From: Candidatus Abzuiibacterium crystallinum
GTDB lineage: Bacteria; Omnitrophota; Omnitrophia; Omnitrophales; Abzuiibacteriaceae
Assembly: GCA_002787155.1 (NCBI GenBank)
Contig: PCVY01000023.1
Coordinates: 6,828-70,827, forward strand
Direction: 5' to 3'
DNA: 64,000 nt
Position numbers and translations under genes: made by a program. The first letter of the stretch is position 1, and every line of letters begins with the position of its first letter. Below the pieces are notes generated by a model. That model saw nothing but the letters and a program-made list of their open reading frames with translations, had not been told where the DNA came from and made no database searches. Shown piece after piece: positions 19,961-55,700 of this stretch.

Positions 19961-20114
19961 GCTTTGCCATGGCAAACGTCAACAGAACCCAGTCTTTTCC
20001 CAACAAATTTTTCTCTTTTCGTTAAAGATTTCCGTCTCCTGTCGATATTTATGATAGTACAGGTAAGAGTACTTCCTTGTTCCTGGTTCCTGGTTTTAAA
20101 GAGAGCGACTCTGA

Positions 20115-20366: not shown

Positions 20367-20389
20367 GCGCGCGCGAGAGGAGAACGGCG

Positions 20390-21445: not shown

Positions 21446-21454
21446 ATTATTCAC

Positions 21455-23320: not shown

Positions 23321-23334
23321 ACACAGGACAACAG

Positions 23335-23946: not shown

Positions 23947-23955
23947 GCAGATACC

Positions 23956-26147: not shown

Positions 26148-26264
26148 TGATTTTTTACCCCCATCTCATCAGCCCTGATTTATAATAGAAATTAGCGCCG
26201 TGCGCGAGTTTCTCCCTTTCCCCTCAAATAAGGGGGAGAGGAAATTCGGAATGTCAAAAAATAG

Positions 26265-29380: not shown

Positions 29381-29416
29381 TTTGATGAGACGGTCTGAGC
29401 GGTATGAGAGGGGCGC

Positions 29417-30064: not shown

Positions 30065-30812
30065 TCAAATCGGGAGTGATCATCCAGGGCTGGCATCTTG
30101 GATTCCCAATATCCTGACGTTTCTCAACTTGTGTACGGGTTTTTTAGCTTTACTCAAGATACATCAGGGTTATTTTTTTCAGGCGGTTTGGTTAATCGTA
30201 TTGTGTCTTGTTTGGGATTCACTCGACGGAAACATTGCCCGGATATTTAAAGTGACTTCACAATTGGGCCGCGAGCTTGATTCTTTGGCGGATGCCGTTT
30301 CATTTGTAGTGGCGCCTACATTTTTGGTTACGATCTATATGTGGTCACAGTTAGATATCCAAGTTCTTTTCTTTGCCGGTATTTTCTTGGTGGCCGGCGT
30401 TTACCGTCTGGCTCGTTTCAATTTAAAACCACCCGTCGCTTATTACTTTAAAGGTTTGCCGACGCCTGCTGCTGCAATTGCTTTAAGCATGACCGTTCTG
30501 GCCCACATGAAAAGTGCCGATCTTCATCCCGAAATTTCCAATTTTTCTTTGTTGTTACTGATGATCTTGCTCAGTATCTTGATGGTCAGCAAAGTCCCTT
30601 ATCCCAAAATATCTGCTTTACCATTCAAGAATTGGCAGATTCTGTCTTATGCCAGCTTGATCATTTTTGCTCTCACAACCTGGATGGTTAATTTGGAATC
30701 TGGAGCGGTCATGATTATTTATCTTTTTTTAGCTTTTTCACCTTTTTGTCGTCAACCTGAATCACCGGCAGTGATGGATCCCTCCGGGGCGCACGCACCT
30801 ATCCCCAAATAA
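30057..30812 (+). CDS. pssA: CDP-diacylglycerol--serine O-phosphatidyltransferase
   Basis: It has the CDP-alcohol phosphatidyltransferase motif DSLDGNIARIFKVTSQLGRELDSLADAVSF (D-x2-DG-x2-AR...G-x3-D-x3-D). It is polytopic and overlaps psd by 8 nt. Confidence 0.85.
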   Translation: MNDQIGSDHPGLASWIPNILTFLNLCTGFLALLKIHQGYFFQAVWLIVLCLVWDSLDGNIARIFKVTSQLGRELDSLADAVSFVVAPTFLVTIYMWSQLDIQVLFFAGIFLVAGVYRLARFNLKPPVAYYFKGLPTPAAAIALSMTVLAHMKSADLHPEISNFSLLLLMILLSILMVSKVPYPKISALPFKNWQILSYASLIIFALTTWMVNLESGAVMIIYLFLAFSPFCRQPESPAVMDPSGAHAPIPK

Positions 30813-30822
30813 AGCAGATTTC

Positions 30823-31425
30823 ATGCTCATTAGTTTTCTCCTTGGTTTCGTCGTTGCTTTGCTTAGTTGGCAGGTTAATTTAATTGCGACACATCAAGGA
30901 TTGCGCTACCGCCGGAGCGCAGCTTTCGCCGCAGGGATTGGTGCTACCTTTGGGGATTTGATTTACTTAGCGATTGCGCTCACCGGCAGCATTCGATTAG
31001 AACAGTTTCCGCAAGCCTGGTGGCTCATTAAATGGATCAGTGCGCTCGTTATTATTTTTATGGCTGCGCGCATGTTTTTTTACCCCATCGAATTAGCAGA
31101 TTCTCAAATGACGGCTGAAAAAGCGCATGTGCATAGTTTCGCGTTTGGTTTCATTCTGGTCGTCGGAAATCCGTTAATTCTTCTCATTTGGTTCGTGATT
31201 GTTAATTCTTTTTTGGAAGAAGTATTAAACCTTCATCGTCCCATGATGCAGGTCTTCATTTTGGCAGGTTTTTTCTTGGGCAGCTTATCCTGGTTTGCTC
31301 TATTAGCAGGTTTTCTGCTCGAGAAGATAAATCGTTTGGAAACGAAGTATCTGCAACAATTCTCGCGCGCAGGCGGTATCCTCCTCTTATTTGCCGGCAT
31401 CATGACACTACTGAAACATATCTAA
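30823..31425 (+). CDS. LysE/RhtB-type small-molecule exporter (tentative)
   Basis: 200 aa with ~6 TM helices. GIGATFGDLIYLAIALTG resembles the LysE family N-terminal pattern. There is no peptidase A24 motif, so it is not the missing prepilin peptidase. Confidence 0.4.
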   Translation: MLISFLLGFVVALLSWQVNLIATHQGLRYRRSAAFAAGIGATFGDLIYLAIALTGSIRLEQFPQAWWLIKWISALVIIFMAARMFFYPIELADSQMTAEKAHVHSFAFGFILVVGNPLILLIWFVIVNSFLEEVLNLHRPMMQVFILAGFFLGSLSWFALLAGFLLEKINRLETKYLQQFSRAGGILLLFAGIMTLLKHI

Positions 31426-37700: not shown

Positions 37701-40700
37701 AGAACAGGGAACAGGGGACTCCGCCGCACATCGTCGGGCGGATCCGTCCTCCGGCGGAAGGGAGCAGGAACCGCGGGACACGGGATCACATGAGCCTCTT
37801 TGGACTGCAGGGGTAGGCGCCGGCGTTCTGCTATCGGCCAAATCAGAATTACGCGTGCAATTTTTTCAGATTGCTTTAACAAAGCTCGTTGACTTTGCAA
37901 GACAAAACGCATCTCTTTTCTTTCGATATGTCATCAACCGTCAGAAGGTTGTTGAGCGGGATGATGACGATTATGAAAAAATGAGTACCGATGAACTATT
38001 AGACGACCTTCAATTTATTCACCTGGCTTATGCTTTTCGCCATGTCCCGCCTCAGCGCAGGTGGGATATTTCACTTTCGCTTGGGTGGCGCGTGCAAAAA
38101 ATGACAAAACCCGAACTTCTCGACTTTTCAAGAAAACTTCTCACTATCTTAACAACCACAAAAGGTTCTAGTGAAAACGCACATCAAATAAGAAGTGCCG
38201 CTGCCGGAGTCTTTAAGGAAGTGGTTAGAATTATTCCAGATACCGAATTATTAGCTATCTTTAAGGCGCTTTTTTCAGCATTAAAAATAACGCACCAGTC
38301 GCTTAGCGTTGCCTTTAGTCACGCCGCCAGGATTGAAGAGCGTGCAATCACAGACACTTTTGAAATAATACGTAAAAGAATGCCTAAAGCTGATTTTTCG
38401 CAAGTGGTTGACGAATACTTGGCAGTGTTGGAAGAAATAAAGAATCGAAAATTTCTTTTCTGGGAAAAAACAATACAACACCAAACTCTCCATTTAATGG
38501 GGGAAGCAGTCTATTCCTTTCCGGAAGCTCAACTGAGGCGAACGGCTAAAGAATTGATCGCTATTTTACGAGCTCTCAAGGACCAGGGCGGAAATGTGAA
38601 CGAAATTCGAATTTTATTACTTTATGTTTTTCGGAACATCGTCGAGCGTTTACCCGAAGCTGATCTGGGCGGCTATGTGACTGAATTACTCTCAACGTTT
38701 GATGCTATCAAAGGATCGAACGAACACGCTGGAGAAGCAAAAGGAGACATAGGTCATATTTTGTCGAAAGCAGCTGAACGGATGCCGCCCTCAGAACTAC
38801 CTCATTTTGCGGATGAAGCATTGATCAGGCTAGAGTCAACGCCAAATCGGGGAAATCAAGCTTATCAGACAACGCGAGCGATGGCGGAGGCTCTTTGGGG
38901 TTTTGCAAAGGCAGTTGATCCCGAAAAGGCGGATCCGCAAAAGATGTCTAAAATCATGAATCTACTTCTTGAAAAATTAAAGCTGATCAAAGGAAAAGGT
39001 GACAATGAGGAGTGGGCCAAAATACATATCTTGCTCGCTTTAGGAGCCATAGCTAAAAAAATCCCACATCAAGAGCTTCCCGGGCTTTCCAATGCAATTC
39101 TTTCAGAGTTAACGCATTATGAGTTTAATGACGGACTCAAAGGCCGTTTAATTGATGTGCTGATAGCAATTGCAGACAGCATTGATCTTGCTGAGCTGCC
39201 AAAGATATCAAACGAGCTTCTGGATGTTTTAAAAGAGATGGGAGAATTAAATGATGACGAAGATGGAGGGTATCAAACACTCGTCACTATAGCTGTATTT
39301 TTTGAACAGATCACACCCAAAATCTCAGAAACAGAACTCCCTCGTATTTCAAAAGCATTTCTCACTGCACTCGCCGCCATCAAAGGATCTAGTTACAATC
39401 TAGACCGTGTGAGAAGGTTTGTCGGAGACGTGCTGGCTTTGATATCACTGAGGATCAATCACTTACCATTGGATAATAAGCCATTAATTGAACAGCTTCA
39501 AAAGTTCTTCTCGCTTGCTCCGGCTAGTCATTCACTTTTTCCGATGTACGGCGACCTAAATGAAATTGGGCATATTTTAAAGCTTGAAGATCACAAGCAA
39601 GTAATAGCCCAACTCAATGCCTACCAGGCACAATTACTGGCACGGTATCAAAGGGAACAGGGAACTCCGCCACACAGCGTCGGGCGGATCCGTCCTCCGG
39701 CGGAAGGGAACAGGGAACAGGGGACGGGGATCAGGTCACAAGACACGGATCACGATCTCTGGCTCAGCGGACCGGTAGGGGCGGGTATCCGGGCAGAATT
39801 AAGAAACAAAGACTATTCCAAAATGACGATCGATGAATTGTTACAGGCACTTCAAATGGGAAGGTCTGATCAAGAAGCTCAGGAACTTAAAATTGGAATT
39901 GCCAAAGTTTTAAAAGAATCAGCTAAAACCATGCAACCAACGGAACTTCAGCATCTTTCTAATAGGCTCCTTTTACTGCTAGAGGCAGCACCGGCAAAGG
40001 GGAGGGCGGGCCGGCAAACCATTCAAGCAGTTGCAGATATTTATCAAGTGATTGCGATGAAAATTGACCCTGCCGAATTGCCTAAGATTTTAGAGGCACT
40101 GCTTACCGCCTCAAAACTACCGCTCAAATATGACGTTGACGGCAGAGATGCTAAAAGGTTCATTACGATTGCATTGACAAAAGTTGCTGAACGAATCCCA
40201 GAAGAAAAACTTCCTACCATATTAAATTATGCGCTTCTTGAATTAAGCCATTATGATTTGGATGATCAATTAACATACAGTTTAATTTTTGTGCTCGATG
40301 CAGTTGCTAACCGAATCCAACCAACCGAACTGCCAAGAATTTTGCATGCCTTACTCGATAAGCTTAAAACAATCAAATCATTAGATGATAAAGATGAAGA
40401 GGATCTCATTTGGCAGGTAGTGATGATAGCAGCATTTACCTTTAAATCGATTGCCGCCAGAATGAGCGCAACGGAACTACCGGCCATTTCGAAAAGACTT
40501 CTCGAAATACGCTCGCTTGCCAAAAGAGATAGCACTCAGGCGGAAAAAACAAGAGACGCTCTCTTAGCGCCTTTTCCTGCCATTGCTGCCCGTATAGACA
40601 AAAAAGAATTACCTAACTTATTTGATCAATTTGTTGACATTTTGAAAAATACACACCGAACAGACGCATCGCCGGGATCAAGTTCTAACATGAGATTGCG

Positions 40701-43700
40701 TTCGCGCAAAGTATTGGCAATTATTTTTCTCAGGAACCATCAATTACCTCTGGATGATGAAACCTTGGCCAAAGCGCTTGAGAACCTCTTGGGCATTCAC
40801 TCTCCTACCGATTCACTTTTTCCCATTTATGGTGAGTTCTCCGAAATCGACCGCATTTTACGATTGCCAGGCCGTGAACAAATGATTGCTCAGCTCACTA
40901 TTTACCGGAAACAATTAATCGCACAGTCTCAAAGGGATCAGGGAACAGGGAACAGGGAACAGGGAACAGGGGACGGGGAACAGGGGACGGGGATCAGGTC
41001 ACAAGACACAGAATCAAATGATACGCTTTGGGTAATTAGTCCTGCTGTCGAACGCTCCGAACTCAGAACCAAAGATTATTCCCGCATGAGCGTTGATGAA
41101 TTGTTAAACGAACTTCAGTCAATCAAAGGATCAACTATTGATGTCAATTGGGCAAGAGAGGCCATTGCCGATACCCTCACAGAAATATTAAAAAGAATTG
41201 ATCCAACCAAACTTCCCGCTATTTCACAAGCCTTGTTGACCGCTTTAAAAGAAATCAAAGGATTTGCTGATGATGCTAATCGGACAAGATGGGCCATTAC
41301 CTTTTCCTTCCCAGAAATATTGCAAAGAATTGATCCAACCGAACTCCCCGCTATTTCACAAGCGTTGTTGATCACTTTAAAAGAAATCAAAGGATTATCT
41401 AATGCGACCAATGAGGCAAGACGGACCATTACCTTTTCCTTCCCAGAAATATTGCAAAGAATTGATCCAACCGAACTCCCCGCTATTTCACAAGCCTTGT
41501 TGATCGCTTTAAAAGAAATCGAAGGATCAACTGATGCTGCCAATCAGGCAAGATGGGTTATTGCCGATGCCTTCAGAGAAATGCCAAAAAGAATTGATAA
41601 GTCTGAACTTCCCGCTATTTCACAAACCCTCTTAGCTGCTTTAAAAGAAATCAAAGGATCAACTATTGGTGCCAATCAGGCAAGAGAAGCTATTGGCAAA
41701 ACCCTAGCTGTTATTGTCTTTCGTCATCATCAAATCCCTGTCACCGATGAGACAAATGATTTATTGAGCGCTCTTCAAGATGTCTTTACACTTGAAATGA
41801 ACGGTGTTTCCATCTATCCCATAGAAAACCATCATCCATTGAACAACCCGGACAATCCCATTCATCAAATCTTTAAACAACATGATCAAGATTACGCACA
41901 AATCATGAGCCAGCTCAATCGTTACAGGGAACAATTGAGCGCACAGCATCAAAGGGATCAGGGAACAGGGAACAGGGAACAGGGGACGGGGATCAGGTCA
42001 CAAGACACGGATCACGATCTCTGGCTCAGCGGACCGGTAGGGGTGGGTGCTGGTTTAACAAAAGCCGGTCGACAGTCCGCAGACCATGATAAAAGGGTAG
42101 AACTGCGAAATGAATCACCCAACCTAGAAGACTTGAGTCCAACCGATGAGGCCCGTGAAGTTGAAGTGGTCATTAAGGCAATTCATGCATTGACAGATTC
42201 GGTTTGGAAGCAACCGCTGCCCCGTCTCAATACCCGATCGAACGCAGGAGCTGAACTTGCTTCATTAGTGAACCAGTGCGTTCACTTGATACGGGATACA
42301 AAGATGACGGTTAACGAGCAAATACAATTGGTGAAGGCGTTCCTGCATTTGCTCGAGTCTTTCGAGTCCTTATACTTGAAGACACTGGTTGGAAGTGCGA
42401 GTCATTTGCAACTGCATTGGCTGCTTAGGCACGTCATGACGGCAATACCGTTCGGGCAAATCACGCCTATCCGTCATGAGATCTATTTATCCCAAGAAAT
42501 AGCCAGAAGGCAGGGTCCTTCCCGTAACACAACCTTGCATATAGATTTTCTAAGCGAAATATTAATCATGCTTGCATTGAAGCAAGCAGGTTTTAAAGGA
42601 ACGTGGGATACGTTAGCCGTTGATAAAATATACAACACAAACGTGTGGAAAGAATTGGGTGATTTCTATTCGGGAACTGTCAGGGTGCGGAGGGAAGGTA
42701 TCGGATTCCTGCATCAATATGCTGATGATGCTGAAATTAACAAGATTATAAATATCTGGCTGGATGATAGCGGCAATCTTGATCACACGCGTGCAGAACA
42801 AGTCATCACTCAACTTAAGCTCTATATCGATCAGTTGCTTCATCAAATTAAAATAAAAGCAAATGAAGAACCCGGGACCGATGATGCTGAACAATCAGCT
42901 GACTCTCGTCCGGAAGATATTTGGCTGCGGGGCTCGTTCCGCCCTCAAGGCGGATTGGGGCCTTCAAAATCTGAATTGCGCACGGCCAAGTCAAAATCTG
43001 ACCTTGGAAAGCGCTTAACCCAATTAGCAAAAGATTTAGAAGCCGAGGTTGAAGCGCGGCAGATAAAAGGATTGGCAAAGCAATTGCTTGAGAATAAAAG
43101 CACCCGCACAAAAACAGATGCCCAAATCGAATCAGAGATCAAAGAAAAAGCGGCGGATGATGCCGCTATGGACCGGTTAATTGCTCATTTAAAAATTGCG
43201 CGCGCTCTTAAGGAAGCGGGAAATGATTTTTTGAGGGATTATGAACAAACGCATTATCTCAAATTAGCTAAAATTCAGCAGCCAAACGCTGTTTTGTGGG
43301 GTCTGCGCTTTCTGGATCTTGATGATATCCAGGATCCGGAAATTCGCCGGTTGATGGGGAAACTTCAGTCACTTTTGATGGTGAACGAGTTCTTTGGGCG
43401 TTCTAGCGCCGCCTTTGTCGAAAGCGTGCTGACGGAATTTATTGTCAACACCGTGATCGGAGATGATTTTGGCATGACGGAACTCTTGACGTCTCTTGAT
43501 CCTAACCAAAACCTGATCGAATTGTTTCAAGATTGGGGCGTTAACGTTCAGCTCAAATACAGCCGGGAGCACACGGGCATTCAAGCGCTCTATGACATAG
43601 CACGTCTTTATTCCAAGGTGTTCCCGGAGTTCAACAATAATGCACGTACCGGTTTTATCACGCATGATTTCAAGGAAATGCTGAGGGAGCCTGAAGGGGA

Positions 43701-46700
43701 TGCCGATCGAAATCAGCAGGCACGCGCGTTGGCAAGGGGAGGAGCCGCGCAAGCACTCAATCTGTTAACCATTCGCTTGCTGGGTTTGCCAGCGGGGCGC
43801 ACCATGGAACAACAGTGGCAGGAACTTTTTAAAATCACCGAAAAAGGAATTCCCAATCTTCAGAAACCGGAACATTTAAACGGCGCGCGCGCCGAAGATA
43901 TTTTGGCGGGTCTGGCAGAAATTTCCAAGACGTCTCAAGGACAACTCAAAGAAGTGGTGGCTGAGCTCATCCAGGGACGGTTTAAATTGCTGGTGAATCA
44001 CGATGTCGAACGGTTTAAACAAATTGGCATCATCATTGGTTTTACGGGGATTGACGGTTTTGCAAAGATTCCGTTCGGCCGCTTGCGGGAAAAATATCAT
44101 CTGACCGAAGGCAGTGAAGAGGAAGGCCGGCTGCTCAAAATCGTTGCCCAAATTTCCAGAACAGCCCGGGAAGGGACAGGCGGCCTCATTGAAGAAGTGT
44201 TTGATCTTTACAGCCAAGAAGCCGGCGAACATTTGGACGATTTGAACAAACTGCTTCAGGCATTTAGTTACTTTGTGCGGCTTGTGAATTTTCACCACGA
44301 TTATGAACGGCTTGTCTTAGAAGGTGATATCGGCAAGGTGAACAATGAAGCGCTCTTTGTCAGCTTGCGGGATTTGAAGCGCACACTTGATATCGTGAAG
44401 AAAAACGATGCCAAAGGGATGGACATTCGCGATGCCATTGCTTCTGCTGTCAAGCGCCGCTATTACAACCGCTTGAGCATCGAAGATCGGGGTATTGTTC
44501 GTGATTTAATGGCGAGACACCGGCTGATTCATGAAAACGATCTCCTGGATTTTGATTATGTGATTGATGGTTTCAAAAACGGCAGTTCCCGAATTCGTAT
44601 CTATCGCAAACGTAAATCAGGCCCGGCGCGGTTTAAACGAACGGAAGTCAAGCCCGGCGAATATAAGATGGAATTAATTCAAGAAAGCGTGGGAAAACCC
44701 GAACTGCTGCTCGAGATTCCGCTGGCTCAGCCGCTTGCCAACGTTGACCCGAAAATTATTTTAAACGAAACGACCCGCCGTAACCTGGCCAATATTCTGG
44801 ATGCATTGGAAGTGGAGGAGGGAAAGCGCTTTAATCCGGTGCTCGAATTTGGCGTGACTTCAGGCGGCAAAAGTACGACGGCAGCGTTGGTTGCCAAGAT
44901 TCTGGGCGTTGGTTTTACGCGCATTCAAATCAATGAACGCACCGATGAATTTGACCTTTTCGGATCGTTTCAGCCTTATGAAATCAATATCACGTTAGAA
45001 GAAGCCATCCAGCTTTTGCAGGAAGCGCTGGCCACGAACAATTATAACGGTCTTGAGGATGTGTTTAGTCGTTTAAAGTCGGATCAAACGGGACAATTTT
45101 GGGAAAATTATTTCAATGCTCAAGAACGACAGACAATCGAGCTTGGAAAGGACAGCCGTTATCCCCAGCGTTCGGTATTGGAGCGTCAACGAGCCGCCAT
45201 TCGTGATAAATTAAAACAATTGGCGGATAAACAGTTAGAACTTGCTCAATCGCTCAAAAGTTTAAGCGCTCAGGAACGCCGCCTCATTGATTCCAAGACA
45301 GATAACCCTGTCTGGCAAGCGCAGCTTGCCCAGCTGCGCCGGGAAGAAGCGGAAGGTTTTGATCAGCTGAACCGCATCAAATCCATTGCATTTATGTTAA
45401 ACCACGAGGTGGGCCTTCGGTATAAGGAAGGGCGTTTTCTCACGGCTTACAAGCGCGGAGATCTCATTCTGCTTGATGAAGTGAATTTAGCCAACGAAGA
45501 AATGCTGGGCGTGCTTTATCAATTACTCACTTTGGGTTATTTGGAATATAACGGCAAAGTGATCGAACCGCCTTTGGGCAAACAAGCCCGCATTCTAGCC
45601 ACGGCCAATCCCTCCGGTTATGCGGGCCGCAGACGCATGAGCGAAGCTTTTATGAACCGTTTTGAAATTATCCATGTTGATGAAATGACGGATGAGGAAA
45701 TGCGCGATATCGTGGTTGGGCAAATGATGAAAGATCTCATCGCCTCAGGCCGCTATACAGCCGGGGATTTTGAACAAAACTCGGATGAAGCGCCGGAAGT
45801 ATGGGATAAAAAAATCAACAAGATTTTACAGGAAGAATATGGTATTACGCGCGAAAGCACTCGATTGTTAGCTGGAGTTCAGCGAAAATTTAACAGCATT
45901 TTGGCGACGGGCAGTTTTCCGCGCATGGGATCCGACTCCAATTATGTCTTCACGCTTCGGAATCTTCAACGGATCGCCGGCGATGTGAAAGAACGCAAAG
46001 AAAATGGCGAACGCATCACCCTTGAAACCTGGATTCGGGAAGCGTACGGCGAATATGCCGGCGTCCTCATGCGGCCCAGCACACAGCCTTCCTACACCGC
46101 AGAGCGGCTTAAGCCTGATGAATCATTGCCGGCGGAACATCATTTATGGGATGATCCGGATTACAAAACCATTCGGCGGGTATTTACGACTTTCATGGGT
46201 GAATTGATTGCCGGAGAAAGTCATCAAAGTTACGATGACGCTTTTGACGAACTCATTCGCCGGCATTTTGAAACCATTCCGTATGTCTATGACTCAACCG
46301 CCCATGCCATCAAGCTGGACGGTCTTCTTACCCAAGGTGCTGAGCCAAACGATCAAAACCCCATTGAACCTTTAATCGAAGTGGGGTCAACCAAAATGGT
46401 TCAAAGGCAAATTTTAAAAGGCATTCGCCGGAATATCCCAACGCTCCTTGTCGGTCAATCCGGCGGCGGTAAAACAGAAATCATCGGCGACTTAGTCAAT
46501 CGCCTTGGCCGTCAATATATCAGCGTGTCTTTGGGCGATGCCACACTGGAAAGTCTGATCGGCACCATGGAATACAACCGAATGGAAAAACGTTTTGTTT
46601 ATCGGCGGGGTGTGCTCGTCAAAGCCATGGAAGAAGGTTCGGTTTTGGTGCTGGAAGAACTCAACATGGCTAAATCGGGCATATTAGAAATTTTGAATGA

Positions 46701-49700
46701 ATATTTCGATGACGGAACGTTTACCAACCCGTTTACCCTAAAACAGGTAGCGGTACACCGTGACTTCCGGTTGTTCGCTACCATGAACCCGATTCAGGGT
46801 GAGACGGGAGAAAATTTAGGCCGCGTGAGTTTGTCGCCCGCTCTCAGAAACCGCTTTCGGGAAATTTGGGTGCCGCACAAGAAAACGGACGCTGAAATGA
46901 ACGAAATTTTAATCGGAAAATTCAAGCAATTGGGTGTTGAAAAAATCGAAAAAGCAACAGGCGCCAAAATCATCGGCTTTTTCCGTGCCTATGAAGAGGC
47001 TTTTAAAGATCAAGCTGATCCGGTGTATTACACCAGTCTGCGCGATTTGAATCGGATTGCCAAAATCATGGCTTATTTAATCAATGAGCTCGACATGCAT
47101 GAGTCGGATGCATTGGCGCGCGCCATTGACCGCGTTTACCGTTTACGCATGCAAAACAGCGGCGCCTTGGCAGTGGTCGATCAAATTCTCATTGAGCTTA
47201 AAATCAAGATCCCGGGTGCCGGTCAATTGTCGTACCAGTCTCGGAATGGCGTCTTGGAAGTGCGCGATGGTCAAACACTGGTTGCCAAATTAGACCTTTC
47301 TTTGATACAGGCCAAGCTTCGCGACCGCATCCGCGGAGAACTCAGTGCTGATACGGATCCGGCAGAACTTGAAGCACTGACAGAGAAGCGTCTAAAAACT
47401 CTCTTGGATGAAGCTGTCTTGGTAGAAAATCCGCGCACGAAGGCTCATCTGCTGGATTTAATGGAAGCCGTCACGCTTCCTTCCGGCGAAGTGAAAAAAG
47501 GAAAATTTAACCCGATTTTTCTTTTGGGTGAGACCGCCGGCGGGAAAAGCTCCCTTACCAAATATTTGGCACTCCATCTTTTGGGCCAAAACTATACGCG
47601 CATTCAATTCAACGAACGCACGGATGAGTTCGACCTTTTTGGCGCCTATGAACCGCGCGAGCTTCACATGGGTCTGGACCGCGCTTTTCGGATTGTTCAA
47701 AATGCGATGGAACAAGGGGAGTGGGTCAAAATCAAGAAAGCCTTGAAGCTTTGGCAAACGGGGGCATTGACCGAAGATGATCTGTCCGAACTTGAAATGA
47801 TTGAGAAGGTGGAAGAGCGCATTCGCACGGTAGATTTAGAGGCCTCTCAACAGATCACAAAGATCTTAAAGGATGCTTCCGAGGAAGATGTCTTAGGTGA
47901 CCCCGGTCAGAAACGTGAAGCCGAACGCAAACTCAAAACCATTGCGTTTTTGATTGAAAATAACATGTTAAATGTCGAGCTGGAATTTCGCGAAGGCAGG
48001 TTATTACAGGCGATCAGGCGCGGCGATGTGGTGGTGCTGGATGAAATGAACCTGGCGAATGAAGAAGCGCTCGCTGTTTTATATCAACTCCTGACTCTGG
48101 GTTATGTGGAGTATTACCACAAAGATACCCGGCAAGTCGAACGCATTACCCCGGCACCGGGCTTTAAACTCATGGCGACCGCAAACCCCGCCTCATATGC
48201 GGGTCGTCATCGGTTGAGTGAAGCCTTAATGAACCGGTTTGAGATTCATTATGTGATGAACATGACACCCCAAGAAATGACCGAGATTCTGCGCGGTGAA
48301 AATAGTCATGAACCAGTGTTCGAACGCGATCAGTCATTTCAGACCACTGTTGAGAAACTGACATTGCTTCAAGAAAATATCAATGAAGCGCTCCGAAACG
48401 GTCAATTTCCCGAAGTGAGTTCCGACCAAGTGCAAGGCTATTTATTTACGCTTCGCAATTTGAAACGTGTTTTACGGAATACAGCAGAACTCTTACGCCA
48501 AGGCGACAGTTCGCCGCCATCTGAGTCACTCATTCGACAAGCCTACCTTGAATACTTAGGCGTCCTCGGACGTTCAGACGCCTCCATCAAAACGCTGCAG
48601 TCTCTTTTCAAAGCGCCAAAACAATTTCCCCAATTTAACCCTGATTTTCGAATTTCCTTTGAGTCAATGACTATGCCCAACGGTCAATCGGGTATTTTAG
48701 CGGGTGGTTTCAAAGTCGTGAGACGTTTTTATGAAGATGAGGCAGAAGGCGTTTCGCACGATGCAGATGTCATTGAAGAGCTTGAAGAGGGTGCAACGAC
48801 TAATTTGATCCGCCAAGCAATTGCGAAAGGACTGTTAGATTCTCGGATGGCGGTTTTGCTGGTGGGGCAAAGCGGCGGGGGTAAAACAGAAATGATCGGT
48901 GATTTAGCAAGGCGTCTGGGCTGGCGCTACCGCTCCGTTTCGCTTGGTAATGCCACCCTGGAGAGTTTAGTCGGCGGTTATGCCATGGACCACGAAACAA
49001 AAAAATTCCGTTATATCCCCGGGATTTTAATCCAGGCCATGCGCGAAGGCGCCATTTTGGTTTTGGAAGAAATGAATATGGCACCGTCCGGACTATTAGA
49101 AATTCTGAATGAATATTTTGACGAAAGTACCTTTACCAATCCCATGACGGGACAGAAAGAAAAAATTCATCCCAATTTTCGGTTATTTGCCACCATGAAT
49201 CCGGAAAAAGGTGTGACGAGTACCAGCGAAGGCCGTGTCGGCTTGTCGCCCGCTCTTCGCAGCCGTTTCTCAGAAGTATGGGTGCCCCATATACGGACGC
49301 AGGCGGAAACAGAGAGAATTATTCGTAAGAAATTCAGCAATCGAGGGGTAAGCCATGTACCGCCCAAAGTGACGGAAGATATTTACCGCGTCTATGACCA
49401 ATACCGCCGGTTTGTTGAAGAAGGCAAAATTGGCCAAGAAAGCAACGAAGGCTATTACGTCGGTTTGCGTGATGTGGTGAAAATAATTGACCTGGTAGCG
49501 CAGGATCAATCGCGCGGCATTCCAATGGAAGAAGCGCTGCGTTTTGCCTTCAAACGAATTTTTTATTTACGCCTCAATAGCGATGCGGACCGCAAAACAG
49601 TTCAAGAAGAGATTCTAAAAACATACGACATGAGCAAGACGGAATACCAATGGAAAAGTGTGAATGACCATTGGGTGGTTAAGCGCACTCAGTGGCAAAC

Positions 49701-52700
49701 GGCAGAAGTTCCGAAGGCACTTTTGAAGGAAAAAGGATTTATTTTAACGCCGCAAAGCCAAGAAGAGCTCGCGCTTCTGCTAGAGGCAATGCAGCGCGGC
49801 GTGACTATTCAGGGCAAAGCAGCCGCGCGTTCCTTTAATCCCATGATGCTGTTTGGTGAGACTTCCGGAGGAAAGTCTACCTTGGTTGAAATTGCCGCCA
49901 GTATTTTCCGGACCCCCTTTACCCGTATTCAAATGAATCAACGAACCGATGAATACGATTTGTTGGGCAGTTACCATCCTGTTGAAGTGAAGTTGACATT
50001 TGAACAAGCCTATGAAGTCGTTCAATCGGTTATTCGCCAAAATCAAACACTGCGTACCGCACAAGTGCTGCGGGCTTTACACATCACGGATGATCACGTG
50101 AAATCGGTTTTGCGCATAAACCCTGATCAAACGATGCCCTTAGAGCAGCTTCAAAAGCGCTTTTTAGAAGAACATGTTTTGGCAAATGCACGGCAGGGAA
50201 ATCCCAAGAGCATTGAACAAATGAAAGATATCGGCGCACTCCTCTTGAACGGCGTTGCCGGCATTGAACTTATTTTCCGTGAAGGCATGCTGCTTCAGGC
50301 CATGGGCGACCGTGAAACCGGTCGACCGGGTCAAGTGGTTCTGTTGGATGAATTTAATTTAGCCAATGAAGAAGCAATCGGCATTCTTTATCAACTGCTA
50401 ACGCTGGGATATATCGAATTTCAAGGGCGGAAAATCTTTCCCGGTAAAGGGTTTCAATTAATTGTGAGCGGCAACCCTTCCCGCTACTCGGGCCGAAGGC
50501 GGATGAGTGAAGCTTTTATGAACCGCTTTGAGATCTTGAACCGTCCTTCAATGACCAAAGAGGAAATGGTTAAAATCTTGACGGAGAAATATGCTTTAGA
50601 AGCATCGGGGATTTCGAAATCCGGCATCGAAGCCCTGGTTGATTTGCAGTTCGACATCGAAGAAACGGCTCAGTCCATCGGTTTTGACTTTTTCAACCAA
50701 GATAACACGTACCGATTTAGTTTGCGGAACTTGGAACGTATTGTGCAGGATTTGAAAAAACGGATGGAAGTGGAGCCCGAACGTTCCGTGCAAGTCATGT
50801 TGCGCGAAGAGGCCTATTTAGAATATGCCGGTTTGCTTTCACAGTCCACCGATGAGGATGATCCGAAGAAGAATAATTTGAAAGTCTTAGCAGGTCTTTT
50901 TAAGAAACACTTCAATTGGGAGATCGATCCGGAAACGGTTTTACCCGAATTCAAGAAGCAGACGCTTGTTAAAGGAGAAGACGAATGGATTTCCTTAAAC
51001 GGGGTGCGTGTGAGAAAACTCTCACCGCATCAAATGTTAGAGAGTTTGCAGTTGGAATTAAATGAAGAAATCAGAAGCGGCGCCTTGGCAGATGATGATG
51101 GCGGAAAATTAGTGCTTTTAACAGAGGCGAATCTTGTGCGCATTTTAGCGCAGGTAGAAAAACGGCTCGCCAGTCATGATCCGCTTTCAAGAAAAGAAAT
51201 CATGCGCGAGGAAGCGCGCACGGAATATCTTAAGATGCTGGGGGAATCGCCTCGTTTGGTCAAGCGCTTAGACGAACTGATTAACCAGCATTTTTATACT
51301 CAAGCCGAGCGCATCGAGCCTTTGGTAGAACTCAAATCAACACGTTTGGTGCGCATGCAAATTTTAAAAGGCTTCCGTGACGGCGGCGTGATTCGTTCTC
51401 GTGATACGGAAGGACGGGAGGTTTTGAATCATCGTTCGCAGCCCGTGCTTTTAGTCGGACAATCGGGCGGCGGTAAAACCGAAGAAATTGCCGATGCGGC
51501 CAGGGAGCTCAACCGGCCTTATATTTCGGTGGCGTTGGGTGCGGCGACCATTGAATCGTTAATCGGCAGCTTTGTGCTGAATAGCGAAACGGGCACTTTT
51601 GAATTTCGAAAAGGGATTATGGTGCGCGCGATGGAAGAAGGGAGCGCGCTCACGCTCGAAGAGCTCAATATGGCGGAAAGCAGCATTATCGAAGTGCTGA
51701 ATGAATATTTTGATCGAGGAACGATGACGATTCAAGAGCGGAATGTTCCCATCCGCATTCATCCCAACTTCCGCTTGTTTGCGACAATGAATCCGACCGA
51801 AGGCAGAACCGGCAGAAATGCGGGACGTATCCCGCTGTCTCCTGCGCTGAGAAGCCGGTTTCGGGAAGTCTGGGTCCGCAATGAACGCAATAAGGGCGAA
51901 CAATACCGCCTCATGTTAGGCGGGATTCACGCGCTTGTTTCTTCTTTAATTACAAGAGGTCTGCCGGAAGATAGGCCGGATGAATTGGAAAACTTAGAGC
52001 TTGATTGGACACGCCGAAGATTGGCTGAGACCGCCGGGCAGCAGGTGCAATTCGCAAGCAGCGAGTCATTGTCCGCCGCATTAAAGGCGGGTCCGTCCAT
52101 TACACTGCCTCGCCATGACAGTTCAGCTATCCGCATGGCCAAAGCATCTGAAGACGGAACGCCCAAAGAAAAACCCACATCAAAGGAATGGGAGCGTATG
52201 GCTATCAATGAAAGAAAACGCATTTATGAAGAACAGTTTCGGATTGTGAGCCACGGCATCATGAACATCATGTCTTCCGATGAAGCCATCGAGTTAGGCC
52301 TATCAAGAGATGGAAGCCATCATTGGGCGTATGCACCTAGTATCAATACATTAATTTATAACAGCCGGGAAATCATGACTTTGAGCTTGGATGCGTTAAT
52401 CGGTGTCGGCGTTCATGAATCGATGCACCGTTACGGCACCCGGTATACGTCTCTTTTTGCAGACTTTTTAGATGCACAGAGTTTGGCGGGCAGTTTTTTT
52501 AATATTTTAGAAGACGGACGCATTGAAAATTGGGCACGTTATCGATTCCGGGGCGTGGAGCGGCCGCTGCGCACACTGAATGATGAAATTATTTTTGATT
52601 TTGAAGATGATAATGAAATGGTTGAGCGCATGATTAAAACTTCTAAAGATGGTAAAGACATAGGTCATGCCGGTGCCATCGGTAATTTCTTTCTTTATCT

Positions 52701-55700
52701 CGCAAAACGCGGATCAGATCCGGGCGCCGGCAAAGTCATCGAAAAGTTCTTAAAAGCGTTTGAAGAAAGAGATCCGGCTTTGAAAGAGGATATAGAAAAT
52801 CTCATGCAAGCCGGCTATTTTGGCGGTGCCAGAGACGAAGATATTATTGATGCGGCACGGCAGCGCAAAGCACAAGGCGTTTTTTCAGCTATTCCAGTCT
52901 CGCCTGATGATGTGGGTGTTTATCGTGTGGATCCCAATCCTTCGGAAGAAACAATTTTGCAATTGGCCATTCACCAAGGTATTTTGATTCGCGATTTTAT
53001 CATGCCCGTTGTTTACAAATGGGCGGTGCTCCAAGCCGAAGGCGAAGGAAGCGGGAAAAGCGGTTCGGGCGGCGCGCCGGGTAGAGGGAAAATCGTCATT
53101 CGGCCGGGCAAACCCGGCGAAGAAAGCACGCCTATTTCACCGCGTGAGTGGAAAAAAATTTGGGATTCATTATCTGAAAATGACAAAAAGAAAATTCTGG
53201 ATACGCTGGATGATCTCAAGAAAAAAGCCCAGGACCGCACAGCCAAAGATTCTATCGATCATAAGAACGCCGCCATCGATGCGGAAATTACCGAACCTAA
53301 GAGCGAGCGCGACCGCTTGATGAGCCAAATGGGCAAGATGATTCATGAGTTGGCAGGATATCTGAGAGATCTTATTCAAAATACGATTCGGCCCAAAGAA
53401 ATTACCGGCCTCAAAAAAGGCCGTATCGACGTCCGGCGTCTCATGAACGCCATGGCGCGCGGTTTTACCGACATGCGTTTTTACAAACAGCGCATCATCC
53501 CTGACAAAAAGGATATCAAATTTACCTTAATCATTGATGAAAGCGGCAGTATGGCAGGGATGGGTGAGTCCGGCAAAGGTCCTGAGGACAATGCGGCAGC
53601 CAAAGGTTACCGCACCTTAATGGGCGCCGCCCTATTAATGGAAGTCCTTGAAACTTTAGGCATTGATTTTGCAGTCCGTGGTTACGGGGATGACACTTTT
53701 CTGCATAAGCGATTTAAAGGACAGCGTATCGAACTATCCGATCAGCGCGCTCACTTTCCGCCGGTGCCGGATGGTTATGCCACACGCAAAGAAAAAGATA
53801 CTTTAATCGATGACTTATACGGTTCTATCGGTAACCATGGCGGCAACAACGAAGGGCCGGCGCTTCAAGCCGCGATTCGGGATATCTTAAAGGCAGGCGG
53901 TGAAAAACATTTTGTCATCGTGATTACCGATGCGATGGGTGACACCAAAGCCATACAAGAGATTTTAGACGAAGTCAGAGCTAAAAAAGGCATGATTGGT
54001 TCCACACAAACCGAGTTCATTGCCATTGGTTTGGGTAATGATACGGAATCGGTGCCGGAGGTCTACGGCAGCGAACACGGATTTTGGCTGCATGATGACG
54101 AAGTCCACAAACTGCCTTCCGAAATTAAAAAGCTGCTGCAAAACGTGATCCGCGGTGTTTATGCACCCGGCAGCGGAACCCCCAGCCGTTTTTCACAGTT
54201 CGGCAAACGGATGACTGATAGTGCTTCAATGGCGGGTGCGGCGGGTGTCGGTGCAAGTACTGCTTCTGCTTCGAGCGCAGCCCGCTCGCACTCAGAGCTG
54301 CGTGCAGATGATTTGGAGTCAAAGGTGCGGAAGATCATTATTCGCTTAGCGCGTTCCCAAGGCGATGGTTTATCTGCTGAACAAGAGCACACGGATATGC
54401 TCAGGCGGTTAGGGGTGCTGGCCAATCGAAGATCACCAGAGGAAGTTTTTGAAATTGTGATCGAAATGATGGCAGACGAGACAGTTGGTTTTAGTCGAAA
54501 AGAAAATGCGATTCGCCGCGCTATCATGGAAGCGTTTCTGAAAGAACTGACACCATCGGCTGTCCTAACCTCGAGCGCGATTAATGAGTTACAAGATTTA
54601 ATGCACACTTTAGCCAGGGAAGCCCACTCACCGGAGGCTCAAGCAGAAATTGACGTGATCAAGAGTCGCATCAAAGAGCTCAGGCTTAAACTGATCATGC
54701 GTCAAGAGGTCTTTACTTATGCCAAAATCACCCAACTTTTGTCTCTCGATCCCTCTGAGACGGTTGATTTATTTCTTGAATCTCTTTTAAGCGGCGATTA
54801 CAGCTCGGGAGTTGATCGTAAAAGAATGGCTAGTAATTTTGGAAATTTGATCTCAAACCTAAACGGCGAACTATTGTTGCAAACAACCGAGCAAATCATT
54901 GAAGCTATCCGGACAGATCCTCGAGCTCACATTGATCCTTATGAGAACCTTGAGAAATATGGGTCAAAGATAGCTTACGAACGACATTCGATTCTGTTGG
55001 AAGGTTTATTGGTGGCTGTGAAAAAGGTGGATCGTTCTATATTGCAGTCAATTGTTGATTGCATGGTTCAAGACTTGCAATATGAGAGGAGCAAGAAACT
55101 CAAGGCGGAAATTTTAGCTATTGCTTTGTTGCGTCAGGAAAATATTATTACTACCAATCCATCTCAAGAAGAAAAAAGTCTCATTAATGCATTAGTAAAC
55201 TTGCCGGGACGTTCCACTTTTCAAACCAGTGATCTAAAAGAAATAACGCTCATGTTGCAGCATGCCAAACCAAAACGAGGGCGCCTGTCAAGCCAAGCCA
55301 TTAAAGTCCTGAGGGAACAGATTAAGAATTTTGATGAGCAAATCAGAGCCCGGGCAACACGCGCACAAAATGAAAATGAACAGCGTTCTGAAGACAATTT
55401 GTTGCCTCCGGATACTGAATCTGAGCTTTGGTTAGAAAATCCTCGCGCGGAACTCCGTACCGAAAATGATGGCAGCAGACGTGTCGATCAATTGTTAAAA
55501 GAACTTCAATCGATTCAGGGATCAAGCGATGAAGCGAATCGCATCAGGCGCGACATTGGGCGGGCTTTAAAGAAGACGGTGGAAGAAAATGCAATCATTG
55601 ATCCCTCTCACGCTGCCCAAGTTCTCATCTCAACGCTTCATCAAATCAAAGGGTCAAACGCCGGGGCTTATAAAGCCAAAGAAGCCATCGGATGGGCGCT

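What the first reader, a model, noticed from the sequence alone, without database searches (positions are those of the whole stretch)
44960..50340. Type A modules carry 100-140-aa insertions between the TDEFDLFG strand and Walker B
The Walker A to Walker B distance is 67 residues in every type B module (46453->46654, 48865->49066, 51457->51658). In the type A modules it is 208, 171 and 164 residues (44851->45475, 47527->48040, 49855->50347). The extra sequence lies where helix-2 inserts occur in this AAA+ clade. It is charged and helical (for example QRAAIRDKLKQLADKQLELAQSLKSLSAQERRLIDS in module 1). In dynein and midasin, insertions emerging from the ring (stalk, buttress, H2 inserts) are the mechanical output or substrate-contact elements. 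Three such inserts spaced symmetrically around an (AB)3 ring would form a three-fold protrusion.
Basis: partly seen in the sequence, partly recalled or inferred. Interest (0 to 1): 0.5.

Follow-up and report, generated by a model that had tools for sequence, protein, structure and literature searches.

The report
Midasin-type helical inserts in bacterial ring
Every second ATPase module of a six-module motor ring, buried inside a bacterial protein of more than 10,767 residues, carries a folded helical excursion of 90-134 residues at the same spot where the eukaryotic ribosome-assembly motor midasin carries its regulatory helical inserts, so this is a bacterial look-alike of a machine usually regarded as a eukaryotic invention.

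Summary
Walker A to Walker B is 208, 171 and 164 residues in modules A1-A3 and exactly 67 in B1-B3. The extra 134, 97 and 90 residues replace the turn of the helix-2 beta-hairpin. AlphaFold2 predicts them as all-helical bundles; in A1 the last two helices form a heptad-patterned hairpin. Position and length are kept in about 15 Omnitrophota species (A1 176-211, A2 165-174, A3 159-166, B always 67). The sequence drifts faster than the core (26-36% against 63-71% identity). The refutation condition (disordered, not conserved) is not met.

This long/short alternation is the known hallmark of eukaryotic midasin (Rea1/Mdn1), where AAA2, AAA4 and AAA6 carry helical "H2-alpha" extensions. AAA2's extension plugs the ring and autoinhibits the ATPase. 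The host is one open frame of more than 10,767 residues. It holds six AAA_5 modules, a B-type lid in front of A1, a conserved HExxH motif and a MIDAS-type VWA domain.

The likeliest role is regulation and docking on the pore face. A symmetric three-fold mechanical output is unlikely, because the three inserts differ (18-33% identity). Homology of the inserts to midasin's is not proven. No paper in the searched library describes this motor in Omnitrophota giant proteins.

The parts
31702..63999 (+). One giant open reading frame of more than 10,767 codons. The first ATG is at 31702 and the frame runs off the 3' end of the window. It is the host protein of the AAA+ ring.
   Evidence: it is the only open stretch above 700 codons. 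The ORF listing does not list it because it leaves the window.
44293..44505 (+). B-type AAA+ lid (small domain) directly in front of module A1 (aa 4199-4269). It probably occupies the small-domain position next to A1 that B3, which has no lid of its own, cannot fill.
   Evidence: BLASTP against the B2 lid (aa 5899-5970): 37.5% identity, E 6e-11. Pfam AAA_lid_5 'Midasin AAA lid domain' E 0.0026, below the cut-off.
44716..46317 (+). Module A1 (long type). Walker A GVTSGGKS at 44851; Walker B LILLDE with D at 45475. Module boundaries are approximate.
   Evidence: AF2 model; PDB hits to midasin.
44992..45393 (+). A1 H2-alpha-type insert of 134 aa (aa 4432-4565): four short helices followed by a long helical hairpin.
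   Evidence: AF2 predicts helices at 94-106, 110-122, 128-132, 135-142, 154-192 and 198-229 of the 364-aa query, with pLDDT 80-91 over residues 100-180. Orthologue lengths are 109-134 aa.
45175..45402 (+). Predicted antiparallel coiled-coil hairpin of the A1 insert (helices aa 4493-4531 and 4537-4568).
   Evidence: heptad a/d positions are 73-78% hydrophobic, against 29-35% at the other positions.
46318..47391 (+). Module B1 (compact). Walker A GQSGGGKT at 46453; Walker B VLVLEE at 46654. The H2 beta-hairpin is bare.
47392..48729 (+). Module A2 (long type). Walker A GETAGGKS at 47527; Walker B D at 48040.
47668..47958 (+). A2 H2-alpha-type insert of 97 aa (aa 5324-5420), predicted as five helices.
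   Evidence: AF2 predicts helices at 95-107, 111-123, 128-131, 141-162 and 171-189, with pLDDT 46-75. Orthologue lengths are 94-97 aa.
48730..49719 (+). Module B2 (compact). Walker A at 48865; Walker B EE at 49066.
   Evidence: The AF2 model shows a bare hairpin (strands 528-532 and 539-543) at the site that carries the insert in A modules.
49720..51321 (+). Module A3 (long type). Walker A GETSGGKS at 49855; Walker B D at 50347.
49996..50265 (+). A3 H2-alpha-type insert of 90 aa (aa 6100-6189), predicted as five helices.
   Evidence: AF2 predicts helices at 870-882, 886-895, 900-906, 917-934 and 938-953, with pLDDT 62-88. Orthologue lengths are 89-98 aa.
51322..51978 (+). Module B3 (compact, large domain only). 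Walker A at 51457; Walker B EE at 51658. No lid-like sequence follows it.
52414..52428 (+). HESMH, a conserved HExxH motif followed by DGRIENW (aa 6906-6910), lying between the ring and the VWA domain. A possible metallopeptidase-like domain.
   Evidence: Conserved in WIN, P0001, P0002, P0013, P0015 and P0024. No Pfam family matched.
53506..54198 (+). VWA domain with a MIDAS motif: DESGS at aa 7280-7284 (nt 53536-53550) and a later ITDA/ITDG strand.
   Evidence: Pfam VWA E 0.0014 and VWA_CoxE E 0.035, both below their cut-offs. A profile searched against the PDB gives the Rea1 MIDAS domain 6qt8_A as best hit (E 0.047), then CobT VWA and Mdn1 residues 4446-4520.

Best explanation
The three insertions are folded, all-helical extensions grafted onto the tip of the helix-2 beta-hairpin of every second module. 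The ring is a six-module, single-chain AAA+ ring of the MoxR/midasin/dynein (AAA_5) type. The inserts are the bacterial counterpart of the 'H2-alpha' inserts on AAA2, AAA4 and AAA6 of eukaryotic midasin (Rea1/Mdn1).

Shown here:
- the position of the inserts;
- their predicted helical fold;
- conservation of position and length across Omnitrophota;
- the same long/short alternation as in midasin;
- a midasin-like context: six modules, a lid in front of the first module, and a MIDAS-type VWA domain about 620 residues after the last Walker B.

Inferred by analogy with Rea1:
- H2 inserts emerge on the pore-proximal face of the ring.
- The three differentiated bundles would therefore sit over or in the central opening.
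- There they would act as regulatory and docking elements. One could occupy the ring centre and hold nucleotide sites open (autoinhibition) until a partner displaces it. The others could contact the N-terminal lid, the post-ring segment or the MIDAS domain.
- The ATP-driven ring would then pull on whatever the MIDAS domain holds.

The long, length-variable coiled-coil hairpin of A1 is the best candidate for a partner-contact arm.

The confidence of 0.6 is a blend: about 0.85 for the structural identification and about 0.4 for the inferred regulatory/docking role.
For: Distances of 208/67/171/67/164/67.

Insert position. The insert lies between strands 83-88 and 233-238 of the A1 model, immediately before helix 240-247 and the Walker B strand 250-254. 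B2 has a bare hairpin at the equivalent place.

Fold. All three inserts are predicted helical. pLDDT is 80-91 (A1, residues 100-180), 46-75 (A2) and 62-88 (A3). The A1 long helices show a heptad pattern. Hydrophobic content is 28-33%, close to the 34% of the whole ring.

Conservation. Lengths are conserved in WIN plus nine homologous proteins and about 15 species. The first two helices and the last helix are conserved even in a second Omnitrophota family that has 145-residue modules.

Link to midasin. Midasins show 70/179/67/135/70/158 and 68/199/66/185/70/251. Short-long-short-long-short-long is the commonest pattern among 143 midasins. An A-module profile searched against 1.84 billion proteins finds, after the Omnitrophota-type relatives, about 130 eukaryotic midasins, most often with AAA2 as the best stretch, bridged across its insert. 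The best PDB sequence hits are midasin. The three-module model best matches the Mdn1 and Rea1 rings (E 1e-22, TM 0.51 over 1071 columns), then dyneins.

Function in Rea1. The helical H2 extensions on AAA2/4/6, the plug role of AAA2, and the 10-15-fold rise in ATPase on its deletion come from PMC6286127 and the review PMC7973254.
Against: Homology of the inserts themselves to midasin's is not demonstrated. Insert-only profile comparison gives P 0.003-0.05 over about 21 columns; the register is always the same, but the result is not significant.

The module cores do not pair A with AAA2/4/6 or B with AAA1/3/5. In the NJ tree A1-3 and B1-3 are each monophyletic at 100%, while 'A + even' gets 2% support. 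In a test with core HMMs the B profile scores higher on five of six midasin module classes, with no alternation. The bacterial ring was therefore probably built by its own triplication of an A-B pair, and the alternation could be parallel evolution.

The register is shifted by one module relative to midasin: the long module comes first here and second in midasin.

The AF2 models rest on shallow alignments (10 and 5 sequences) with mean pLDDT of 73-74. The A2 insert is predicted only at low to moderate confidence.

No tool here could place the inserts relative to the assembled ring, and no functional data exist for any homologue.
Confidence: 0.6

Rival explanations
1. First reader's reading. 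The three inserts form a symmetric three-fold protrusion that is the mechanical output or substrate-contact element of an (AB)3 ring, comparable to the dynein stalk and buttress.
For: The A-B-A-B-A-B order places the inserts at alternate positions of the ring. The A1 insert contains a long coiled-coil hairpin of about 70 residues that could reach away from the ring. H2 inserts contact substrates or partners in several AAA+ families (PMC7973254).
Against: The three inserts are not equivalent. They are 134, 97 and 90 aa long and 18-33% identical to each other, and each has its own orthologue-specific conservation. In the only solved relative, the equivalent inserts are a plug, a partly disordered element and a linker/N-terminal-domain contact, not the force output. 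The dynein stalk and buttress arise from small domains, not from helix 2 (my own knowledge). Only A1 has the long hairpin.
Confidence: 0.12
2. Convergent adaptor arms. The helical inserts arose within Omnitrophota independently of midasin. They serve mainly as docking sites for other parts of the same giant protein (for example the helical repeat arrays) or for partner proteins, in the manner of the ClpB/ClpC middle domain, with no autoinhibitory plug function.
For: Core-based tests give no A-to-even-module orthology. The insert-only comparison is not significant. Foldseek with the A1 model also picks up ClpC/ClpB chains, which carry coiled-coil insertions in an AAA domain. Other prokaryotic six-module AAA_5 giants lack inserts altogether (P0019-P0023), so inserts can be gained or lost. 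The middle of the insert is variable in sequence and, in A1, in length.
Against: The insertion point, the helical nature, the alternation and the lengths (A2 171 against a midasin AAA2 median of 176) all coincide with midasin. The flanking G-x-[YFQ]-x-P hairpin strand is shared with midasin AAA2 and AAA4. The weak insert similarity always falls in the same register. HMMER bridges the insert in AAA2.
Confidence: 0.22
3. The insertions are disordered, compositionally biased filler with no specific structure or function.
For: They are rich in charged residues (22-38%) and evolve about twice as fast as the core. The A2 insert has some segments with pLDDT below 50.
Against: Lengths are held within a few residues for A2 and A3 across about 15 species. 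Hydrophobic content is like that of the ring, and there are few Pro or Gly. The helices are predicted with pLDDT up to 91, and A1 shows a heptad pattern. The first and last helices are conserved even in a second family.
Confidence: 0.03

Closest known systems
H2-alpha inserts of eukaryotic midasin (Rea1/Mdn1) AAA2, AAA4 and AAA6
   Same: A helical bundle is grafted on the tip of the H2 beta-hairpin. It is present in every second module of a six-module single-chain AAA_5 ring. Lengths are similar (midasin AAA2 Walker A to Walker B median 176, against 171 for A2). The three copies are differentiated. The ring is followed by a MIDAS-type VWA domain, and an N-terminal element stands where the missing last small domain would be.
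   Different: The register is shifted by one module: the long module is first here and second in midasin. [quoted passage not shown] There is no linker of about 1700 residues: only about 620 residues separate the last Walker B from the MIDAS motif, and they contain an HExxH motif. The ring is embedded in a protein of more than 10,767 residues with helical repeat arrays on both sides. Insert sequence homology is unproven. The cores indicate an independent A-B triplication.
MoxR-family hexamers (NorQ, CbbQ, RavA) with a VWA partner
   Same: The AAA_5/MoxR fold with a bare H2 beta-hairpin, as in the B modules. They are functionally coupled to a VWA/MIDAS protein. NorQ and CbbQ are the top single-module structural hits.
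   Different: These are homo-hexamers of single-module proteins without helical extensions on the H2 hairpin, and the VWA domain is on a separate polypeptide.
Dynein motor domain
   Same: Six concatenated AAA+ modules in one chain. It is the second-best structural match of the three-module model. The AAA2 H2 insert is functionally important.
   Different: There is no alternation of helical H2 extensions and no MIDAS domain. The output elements (stalk, buttress) arise from small domains, and several sites are degenerate.
Omnitrophota giant proteins ('Archaeovorins'; West-Roberts et al. 2023, bioRxiv 10.1101/2023.11.21.568195; Seymour et al. 2023, PMC10066038)
   Same: The closest homologues are all from Omnitrophota MAGs. 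The ORF is a giant one. Type IV pilus / type II secretion-like genes lie just upstream, as those papers report. AAA_5 is listed among the frequent domains in those proteins.
   Different: Neither those papers nor a 2026 preprint on very long Omnitrophota proteins mentions midasin, dynein or MoxR, or dissects a six-module ring. This protein shows only one convincing hydrophobic segment, at the N-terminus, and its repeat arrays give no Pfam hit.
ClpB/ClpC middle domain and HslU I-domain
   Same: These are also helical or coiled-coil insertions in an AAA+ large domain, used for regulation and partner docking. They appear among weaker Foldseek hits.
   Different: The insertion site and the AAA+ clade are different, and there is no relationship beyond the general principle.

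Membership tests
AAA+ helix-2-insert clade, AAA_5 (MoxR/midasin/dynein-related) subfamily | P-loop AAA+ core matching the AAA_5 profile | tested here: met
   Pfam AAA_5 E 2e-108, 8 stretches over the ring. The A modules are split into two stretches by the insert.
AAA+ helix-2-insert clade, AAA_5 (MoxR/midasin/dynein-related) subfamily | Beta-hairpin inserted in helix 2 between strand beta-2 and Walker B | tested here: met
   AF2: strands 83-88 and 233-238 in A1; strands 528-532 and 539-543 in B2. The top structural hits are NorQ, CbbQ and Rea1.
Midasin (Rea1/Mdn1) | Six AAA+ modules concatenated in one polypeptide | tested here: met
   Six Walker A / Walker B pairs in one frame. Paired N-half and C-half HMM hits give six modules.
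Midasin (Rea1/Mdn1) | Helical (H2-alpha) extension of the H2 hairpin on alternate modules | tested here: met
   208/67/171/67/164/67 here against 70/179/67/135/70/158 in midasin. The inserts are predicted helical. The register is shifted by one module. Sequence homology of the inserts is inconclusive.
Midasin (Rea1/Mdn1) | Last module lacks its small domain; an N-terminal domain takes that place next to the first large domain | tested here: inconclusive
   A B-type lid precedes A1 (E 6e-11 against the B2 lid) and none follows B3. This is the same topology as described for Rea1. Its placement in the ring could not be verified.
Midasin (Rea1/Mdn1) | C-terminal MIDAS (VWA) domain with DxSxS | tested here: inconclusive
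   DESGS and an ITDA/ITDG strand are present and conserved. The best PDB hit of the profile is the Rea1 MIDAS domain, but only at E 0.047. Pfam VWA E 0.0014 is below the gathering score. The domain is not C-terminal: more than 3,200 further residues follow it.
Midasin (Rea1/Mdn1) | Linker of about 1700 residues plus a D/E-rich region between the ring and MIDAS | tested here: not met
   Only about 620 residues separate the last Walker B (aa 6654) from the MIDAS motif (aa 7280). They contain an HExxH motif and a short Gly/Lys/Ser-rich stretch.
Midasin (Rea1/Mdn1) | Module-by-module orthology with AAA1-AAA6 | tested here: not met
   A1-3 and B1-3 each form their own clade (100%). 'A + even' gets 2% support. 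The core HMM scores show no alternation. Whole-ring identity to midasins is 22-26%.
Midasin (Rea1/Mdn1) | [quoted passage not shown] | not testable with these tools
   This is a eukaryote-specific process and no functional data exist for the bacterial proteins.
Omnitrophota giant proteins | Giant ORF in an Omnitrophota genome near type II secretion / type IV pilus-like genes | tested here: met
   The frame is longer than 10,767 codons. The nearest relatives are 13 named Omnitrophota or Omnitrophota-candidate MAGs, five MAGs labelled only 'uncultured bacterium', and one MAG labelled Chlamydiae. PilM/PilN, secretin and a ParA-like ATPase lie upstream. That the window itself comes from Omnitrophota is an inference; the best identity is 57%.
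Omnitrophota giant proteins | Many transmembrane segments; HEAT repeats detectable | tested here: not met
   The only convincing hydrophobic segment is the N-terminal one. A Gly/Ala-rich junction and a few segments inside folded regions also passed the threshold (Kyte-Doolittle scan). No Pfam family matches either repeat array at E <= 0.001.

The most novel reading that the evidence does not exclude
Omnitrophota giant proteins embed a complete midasin-type engine: six concatenated AAA_5 modules with alternating H2-alpha inserts, a lid that closes the ring, and a tethered MIDAS domain. This would mean that the single-chain ring with alternating helical inserts is not a eukaryotic invention. Either a two-module 'long + short' ancestor predates both lineages and was triplicated in each, or bacteria built the same architecture in parallel. 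In both cases these proteins would be a tractable prokaryotic model for how H2-alpha inserts gate a midasin-like motor. The motor might act on its own polyprotein, whose 17 or more cassettes are separated by a conserved LW...(Gly/Ala-rich)...ELR junction and which carries a conserved HExxH motif beside the MIDAS domain.
Probability: 0.25. Interest if true: 0.8.

Novelty: new variant of a known kind. Interest (0 to 1): 0.58.

Why it matters
The published view found here (PMC3495828) is that a MoxR-like ATPase gave rise to a six-tandem-AAA+ protein 'early in eukaryotic evolution', and that this protein diverged into dynein and midasin. Here a bacterial lineage carries a six-module single-chain ring with midasin's most idiosyncratic feature, helical H2 extensions on every second module, together with a MIDAS-type domain.

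If the inserts are homologous, the alternating two-module unit is older than eukaryotes. If they are not, the same solution was found twice, which argues that alternating plugs are a functional requirement of this kind of ring.

The result also gives a first mechanistic handle on the Omnitrophota giant proteins. The literature describes their functions as poorly understood. At least this family contains an intracellular-type ATP-driven remodelling engine, which sits awkwardly with a purely extracellular adhesin model.

Tried and rejected
1. The search for homologous proteins with the A-module alignment returned nothing, although single-sequence and exhaustive searches do find relatives. I treat this as a failure of the word-index step and it cost one search.

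2. An NJ tree of 29 module cores, built to test A = even and B = odd midasin modules, left the deep nodes unresolved.

3. Reciprocal core-HMM scoring on 42 x 6 midasin modules showed no alternating preference. The B profile simply scores higher nearly everywhere. I therefore do not claim module orthology.

4. Insert-only hhalign against midasin AAA2 and AAA4 inserts gave P 0.003-0.19, which is not significant.

5. Pfam on both repeat arrays (3,300 and 3,268 aa) gave no family. 'HEAT-like' is therefore only a visual impression.

6. Pfam on the post-ring segment gave only sub-threshold VWA hits and nothing for the HExxH region.

7. Literature searches for a bacterial or prokaryotic midasin found nothing relevant. 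The library lacks many subscription papers (for example Iyer et al. 2004 and Garbarino & Gibbons 2002), so prior mention cannot be excluded.

8. I considered and rejected equating the inserts with the dynein stalk or buttress (different structural origin) and reading them as transmembrane or disordered segments.

Full report
**What is at the locus**

The finding lies inside a single open frame that starts at nt 31699 (first ATG at 31702) and is still open at nt 63999, that is, more than 10,767 codons. The ORF listing does not show it because it runs off the window.

Pfam finds AAA_5 ('dynein-related subfamily') at E 2e-108 in eight stretches between nt 44299 and 54300. Motif scanning gives six Walker A / Walker B pairs in the order A1 B1 A2 B2 A3 B3.

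**Check of the observation**

- The Walker A glycines are at aa 4385, 4919, 5277, 5723, 6053 and 6587.
- The Walker B acidic pairs are at aa 4593, 4986, 5448, 5790, 6217 and 6654.
- The distances are 208/67/171/67/164/67, exactly as reported, at the reported nucleotide positions.
- The quoted charged peptide is present.

**Where exactly the extra sequence sits**

An A module can be aligned with a B module around the insertion site:

- B: LESLIG-TMEYNRMEKRFVYRRG-VLVKAMEEG-SVLVLEE
- A: EFDLFG-SFQPYEI[...]VGLRYKEG-RFLTAYKRG-DLILLDE

The insert replaces the turn of the helix-2 beta-hairpin.

The AF2 model of A1 (10-sequence alignment, mean pLDDT 74) has strand 83-88, then six helices (94-106, 110-122, 128-132, 135-142, 154-192, 198-229). 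After these come strand 233-238, helix 240-247 and the Walker B strand 250-254.

The model of A2-B2-A3 (5 orthologues, mean pLDDT 73) gives the same five-helix plan for A2 (95-189) and A3 (870-953). B2 has a bare hairpin (528-532 and 539-543) at the same site.

The 'TDEFDLFG strand' of the finding is in fact the N-terminal stub of helix 2.

I place the inserts as follows:

| Insert | nt | Length |
|---|---|---|
| A1 | 44992-45393 | 134 aa |
| A2 | 47668-47958 | 97 aa |
| A3 | 49996-50265 | 90 aa |

**Structured or disordered?**

- pLDDT in the inserts reaches 80-91 (A1) and 62-88 (A3). It is lower, 46-75, in A2.
- The two long A1 helices (aa 4493-4531 and 4537-4568) carry hydrophobic residues at 73-78% of heptad a/d positions, against 29-35% at the other positions. 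This is what an antiparallel coiled-coil hairpin would show.
- Hydrophobic content is 28-33%, close to the 34% of the ring, and Pro and Gly are few.

**Conservation**

Walker A to Walker B distances in WIN and nine homologous proteins:

| Module | Distances |
|---|---|
| A1 | 208/183/193/193/204/204 |
| A2 | 171/168/168/171/171/171 |
| A3 | 164/163/166/159/164/164/163 |
| B | always 67 |

A scan of 185,579 species genomes found 20 loci in 18 MAGs. Thirteen are named Omnitrophota or Omnitrophota-candidate genera, one is labelled Chlamydiae, and the rest are labelled only 'uncultured bacterium'. In these loci A1 is 176-211, A2 165-174, A3 159-166, and B is always 67.

Orthologue identity is 63-71% in the cores and 26-36% in the inserts. 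The first two helices and the last helix are the conserved parts. They are recognisable even in a second Omnitrophota family (P0017, P0018, P0031), whose modules alternate 145/68.

The finding's refutation condition (disordered, not conserved in length or position) is therefore not met.

**What it corresponds to**

The best PDB sequence matches for both A and B modules are midasin chains. Beyond the Omnitrophota-type family, the best database relatives of the ring are eukaryotic midasins at 22-26% identity.

Midasins show the same alternation:

- 70/179/67/135/70/158 in P0007 and 68/199/66/185/70/251 in P0008.
- Short-long-short-long-short-long is the commonest pattern among 143 midasins.
- The median Walker A to Walker B distance is 176 for AAA2 and 131 for AAA4.

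The Rea1 cryo-EM paper (PMC6286127) states that all large domains have H2 beta-sheet inserts. [quoted passage not shown] According to that paper:

- AAA2L-H2-alpha sits in the ring centre and keeps sites open.
- Its deletion raises ATPase activity 10-15-fold.
- AAA4L-H2-alpha can take its place.
- AAA6L-H2-alpha contacts the N-terminal domain and linker.

An exhaustive profile search with the A module against 1.84 billion representatives returns first the Omnitrophota-type proteins. It then returns about 130 midasins, most often with AAA2 as the best stretch, bridged across its insert.

The three-module model matches the Mdn1 ring (E 1.3e-22, TM 0.51 over 1071 columns) and the Rea1 ring best, then dyneins. 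The single A1 model matches NorQ, CbbQ and Rea1.

**The wider engine**

- Lid before A1. A B-type lid lies immediately before A1: aa 4199-4269 is 37.5% identical to the B2 lid, E 6e-11. Pfam gives 'Midasin AAA lid' at E 0.0026, below the cut-off. No lid follows B3. This parallels Rea1, where AAA6S is absent and the N-terminal domain takes its place.
- After B3. A conserved HESMHR...DGRIENW motif follows.
- MIDAS-type domain. About 620 residues after the last Walker B there is a VWA domain with DESGS and an ITDA/ITDG strand. Its profile hits the Rea1 MIDAS domain first in the PDB, but only at E 0.047. Pfam VWA is below threshold.
- Nucleotide sites. All six modules keep the Walker A lysine, the Walker B glutamate, the sensor-1 Asn (ATANP / ATMNP) and NRF. 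The B modules have EE instead of DE.

**Limits of the midasin comparison**

- The insert sequences are not demonstrably homologous. hhalign gives P 0.003-0.05 over about 21 columns, always in the same register.
- In a module tree A1-3 and B1-3 are each monophyletic at 100%, while 'A + even modules' gets 2%.
- Core HMMs show no alternating preference.
- The bacterial ring thus looks like its own triplication of an A-B pair, and the register is shifted by one module relative to midasin.
- There is no 1700-residue linker, and the MIDAS-type domain is internal, not C-terminal.

I therefore file the ring as midasin-like in construction, not as a member of the midasin orthologous group.

**Likely mechanism**

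Shown: folded helical extensions sit on the H2 hairpin tips of alternate modules. They are conserved in place and size, and they are differentiated from one another (18-33% identity).

Inferred from AAA+ geometry and from Rea1: the inserts emerge on the pore-proximal face and cannot all occupy the centre. They probably act as gate and docking elements that couple partner binding to ATPase activation and MIDAS docking. The A1 coiled-coil hairpin, which is variable in length (109-134 aa), would be the reach-out arm.

**Novelty**

H2-alpha inserts are known in midasin. Two papers on Omnitrophota giant genes and a 2026 preprint do not mention midasin, dynein or MoxR. One of them lists AAA_5 among frequent domains. 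A 2012 analysis places the origin of the six-tandem ring 'early in eukaryotic evolution'. No paper on a bacterial midasin was found, but the library is incomplete.

Noticed in passing
window 31702-63999 (+): The frame begins with a signal-peptide-like segment (MFIPKNIQRAIAFFLAISFSLSNGPTLLLAETYPG). A hydropathy scan finds no other convincing membrane segment. Yet the protein contains an ATP-dependent ring, which makes no sense outside the cell. The topology or export of this giant is unexplained.
   Followed up: partly
window 33823-42981 and 55426-63045 (17 sites, e.g. 37099, 39757, 41026, 56272, 57601): A recurring junction motif, [LI]W-(Gly/Ala-rich, 5-25 aa)-x-E-L-R, often preceded by Y-R-E-Q-L...Q-R-E-Q-G-T-G, cuts the protein into at least 17 cassettes. 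The motor cassette itself is bounded by SKSELR (aa 3761) and HSELR (about aa 7545). Homologue P0010 has SEVR at the same places. The motif could be a cleavage site or a MIDAS-ligand site of a polyprotein. This is pure speculation.
   Followed up: partly
window 46642-46659, 49054-49071, 51646-51663: All B modules have Walker B hhhhEE instead of hhhhDE (VLVLEE, ILVLEE, ALTLEE). This is conserved in nearly all B modules of the homologues examined. The A modules have the canonical DE.
   Followed up: partly
window 44293-44505 versus 49393-49608: A B-type AAA+ lid lies N-terminal to A1, and none follows B3. The ring is therefore encoded as six 'small domain + next large domain' units, that is, a circularly permuted B module. 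This mirrors the replacement of AAA6S by the N-terminal domain in Rea1.
   Followed up: partly
window 52414-52428 (and about 52330-52600): A conserved HExxH motif (HESMHR...DGRIENWAR) lies between the ring and the VWA domain in all homologues that cover the region. No Pfam family matches. It may be a metallopeptidase-like domain.
   Followed up: partly
L021 and L022, position about 18443-18445 (homologue P0010/P0015): In a homologous gene assembled independently in a JGI and an ENA sample, a single in-frame TAG interrupts the frame inside the A1 insert, after the first long helix. The same frame continues directly into the rest of A1. It could be an error, a pseudogene, read-through or a naturally split ring. 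The location in the insert is notable.
   Followed up: partly
window 41704-41996 versus 57289-57581 and 63701-63988: There are near-identical internal DNA repeats within the giant ORF: 93.5% identity over 293 nt and 87% over 288 nt. They indicate recent cassette duplication or gene conversion, and they are a possible source of assembly collapse.
   Followed up: partly
window 17912-31425 (+): The genes just upstream encode a TPR protein, a ParA-like AAA_31 ATPase, a PilM/PilN fusion, a secretin, a PEGA-domain protein, phosphatidylserine decarboxylase, a CDP-alcohol phosphatidyltransferase and a LysE-type translocator. This is a type IV pilus / type II secretion-like neighbourhood, as reported for Omnitrophota giant genes.
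   Followed up: partly
proteins P0017, P0018, P0031; P0019-P0023: Other prokaryotic single-chain multi-AAA_5 proteins exist. A second Omnitrophota family alternates 145/68-residue modules. Several giants, including one from a Thermoproteota archaeon (P0020), have five or six compact modules (67-82) without helical inserts. Concatenated AAA_5 rings are therefore not confined to eukaryotes.
   Followed up: partly
window 34399-44298 and 54196-63999: The long helical repeat arrays on both sides of the motor (units such as ELPAISQALLxALKEIKGSxxxAxxAR) give no Pfam hit at E <= 0.001, although they look HEAT/ARM-like by eye.
   Followed up: partly
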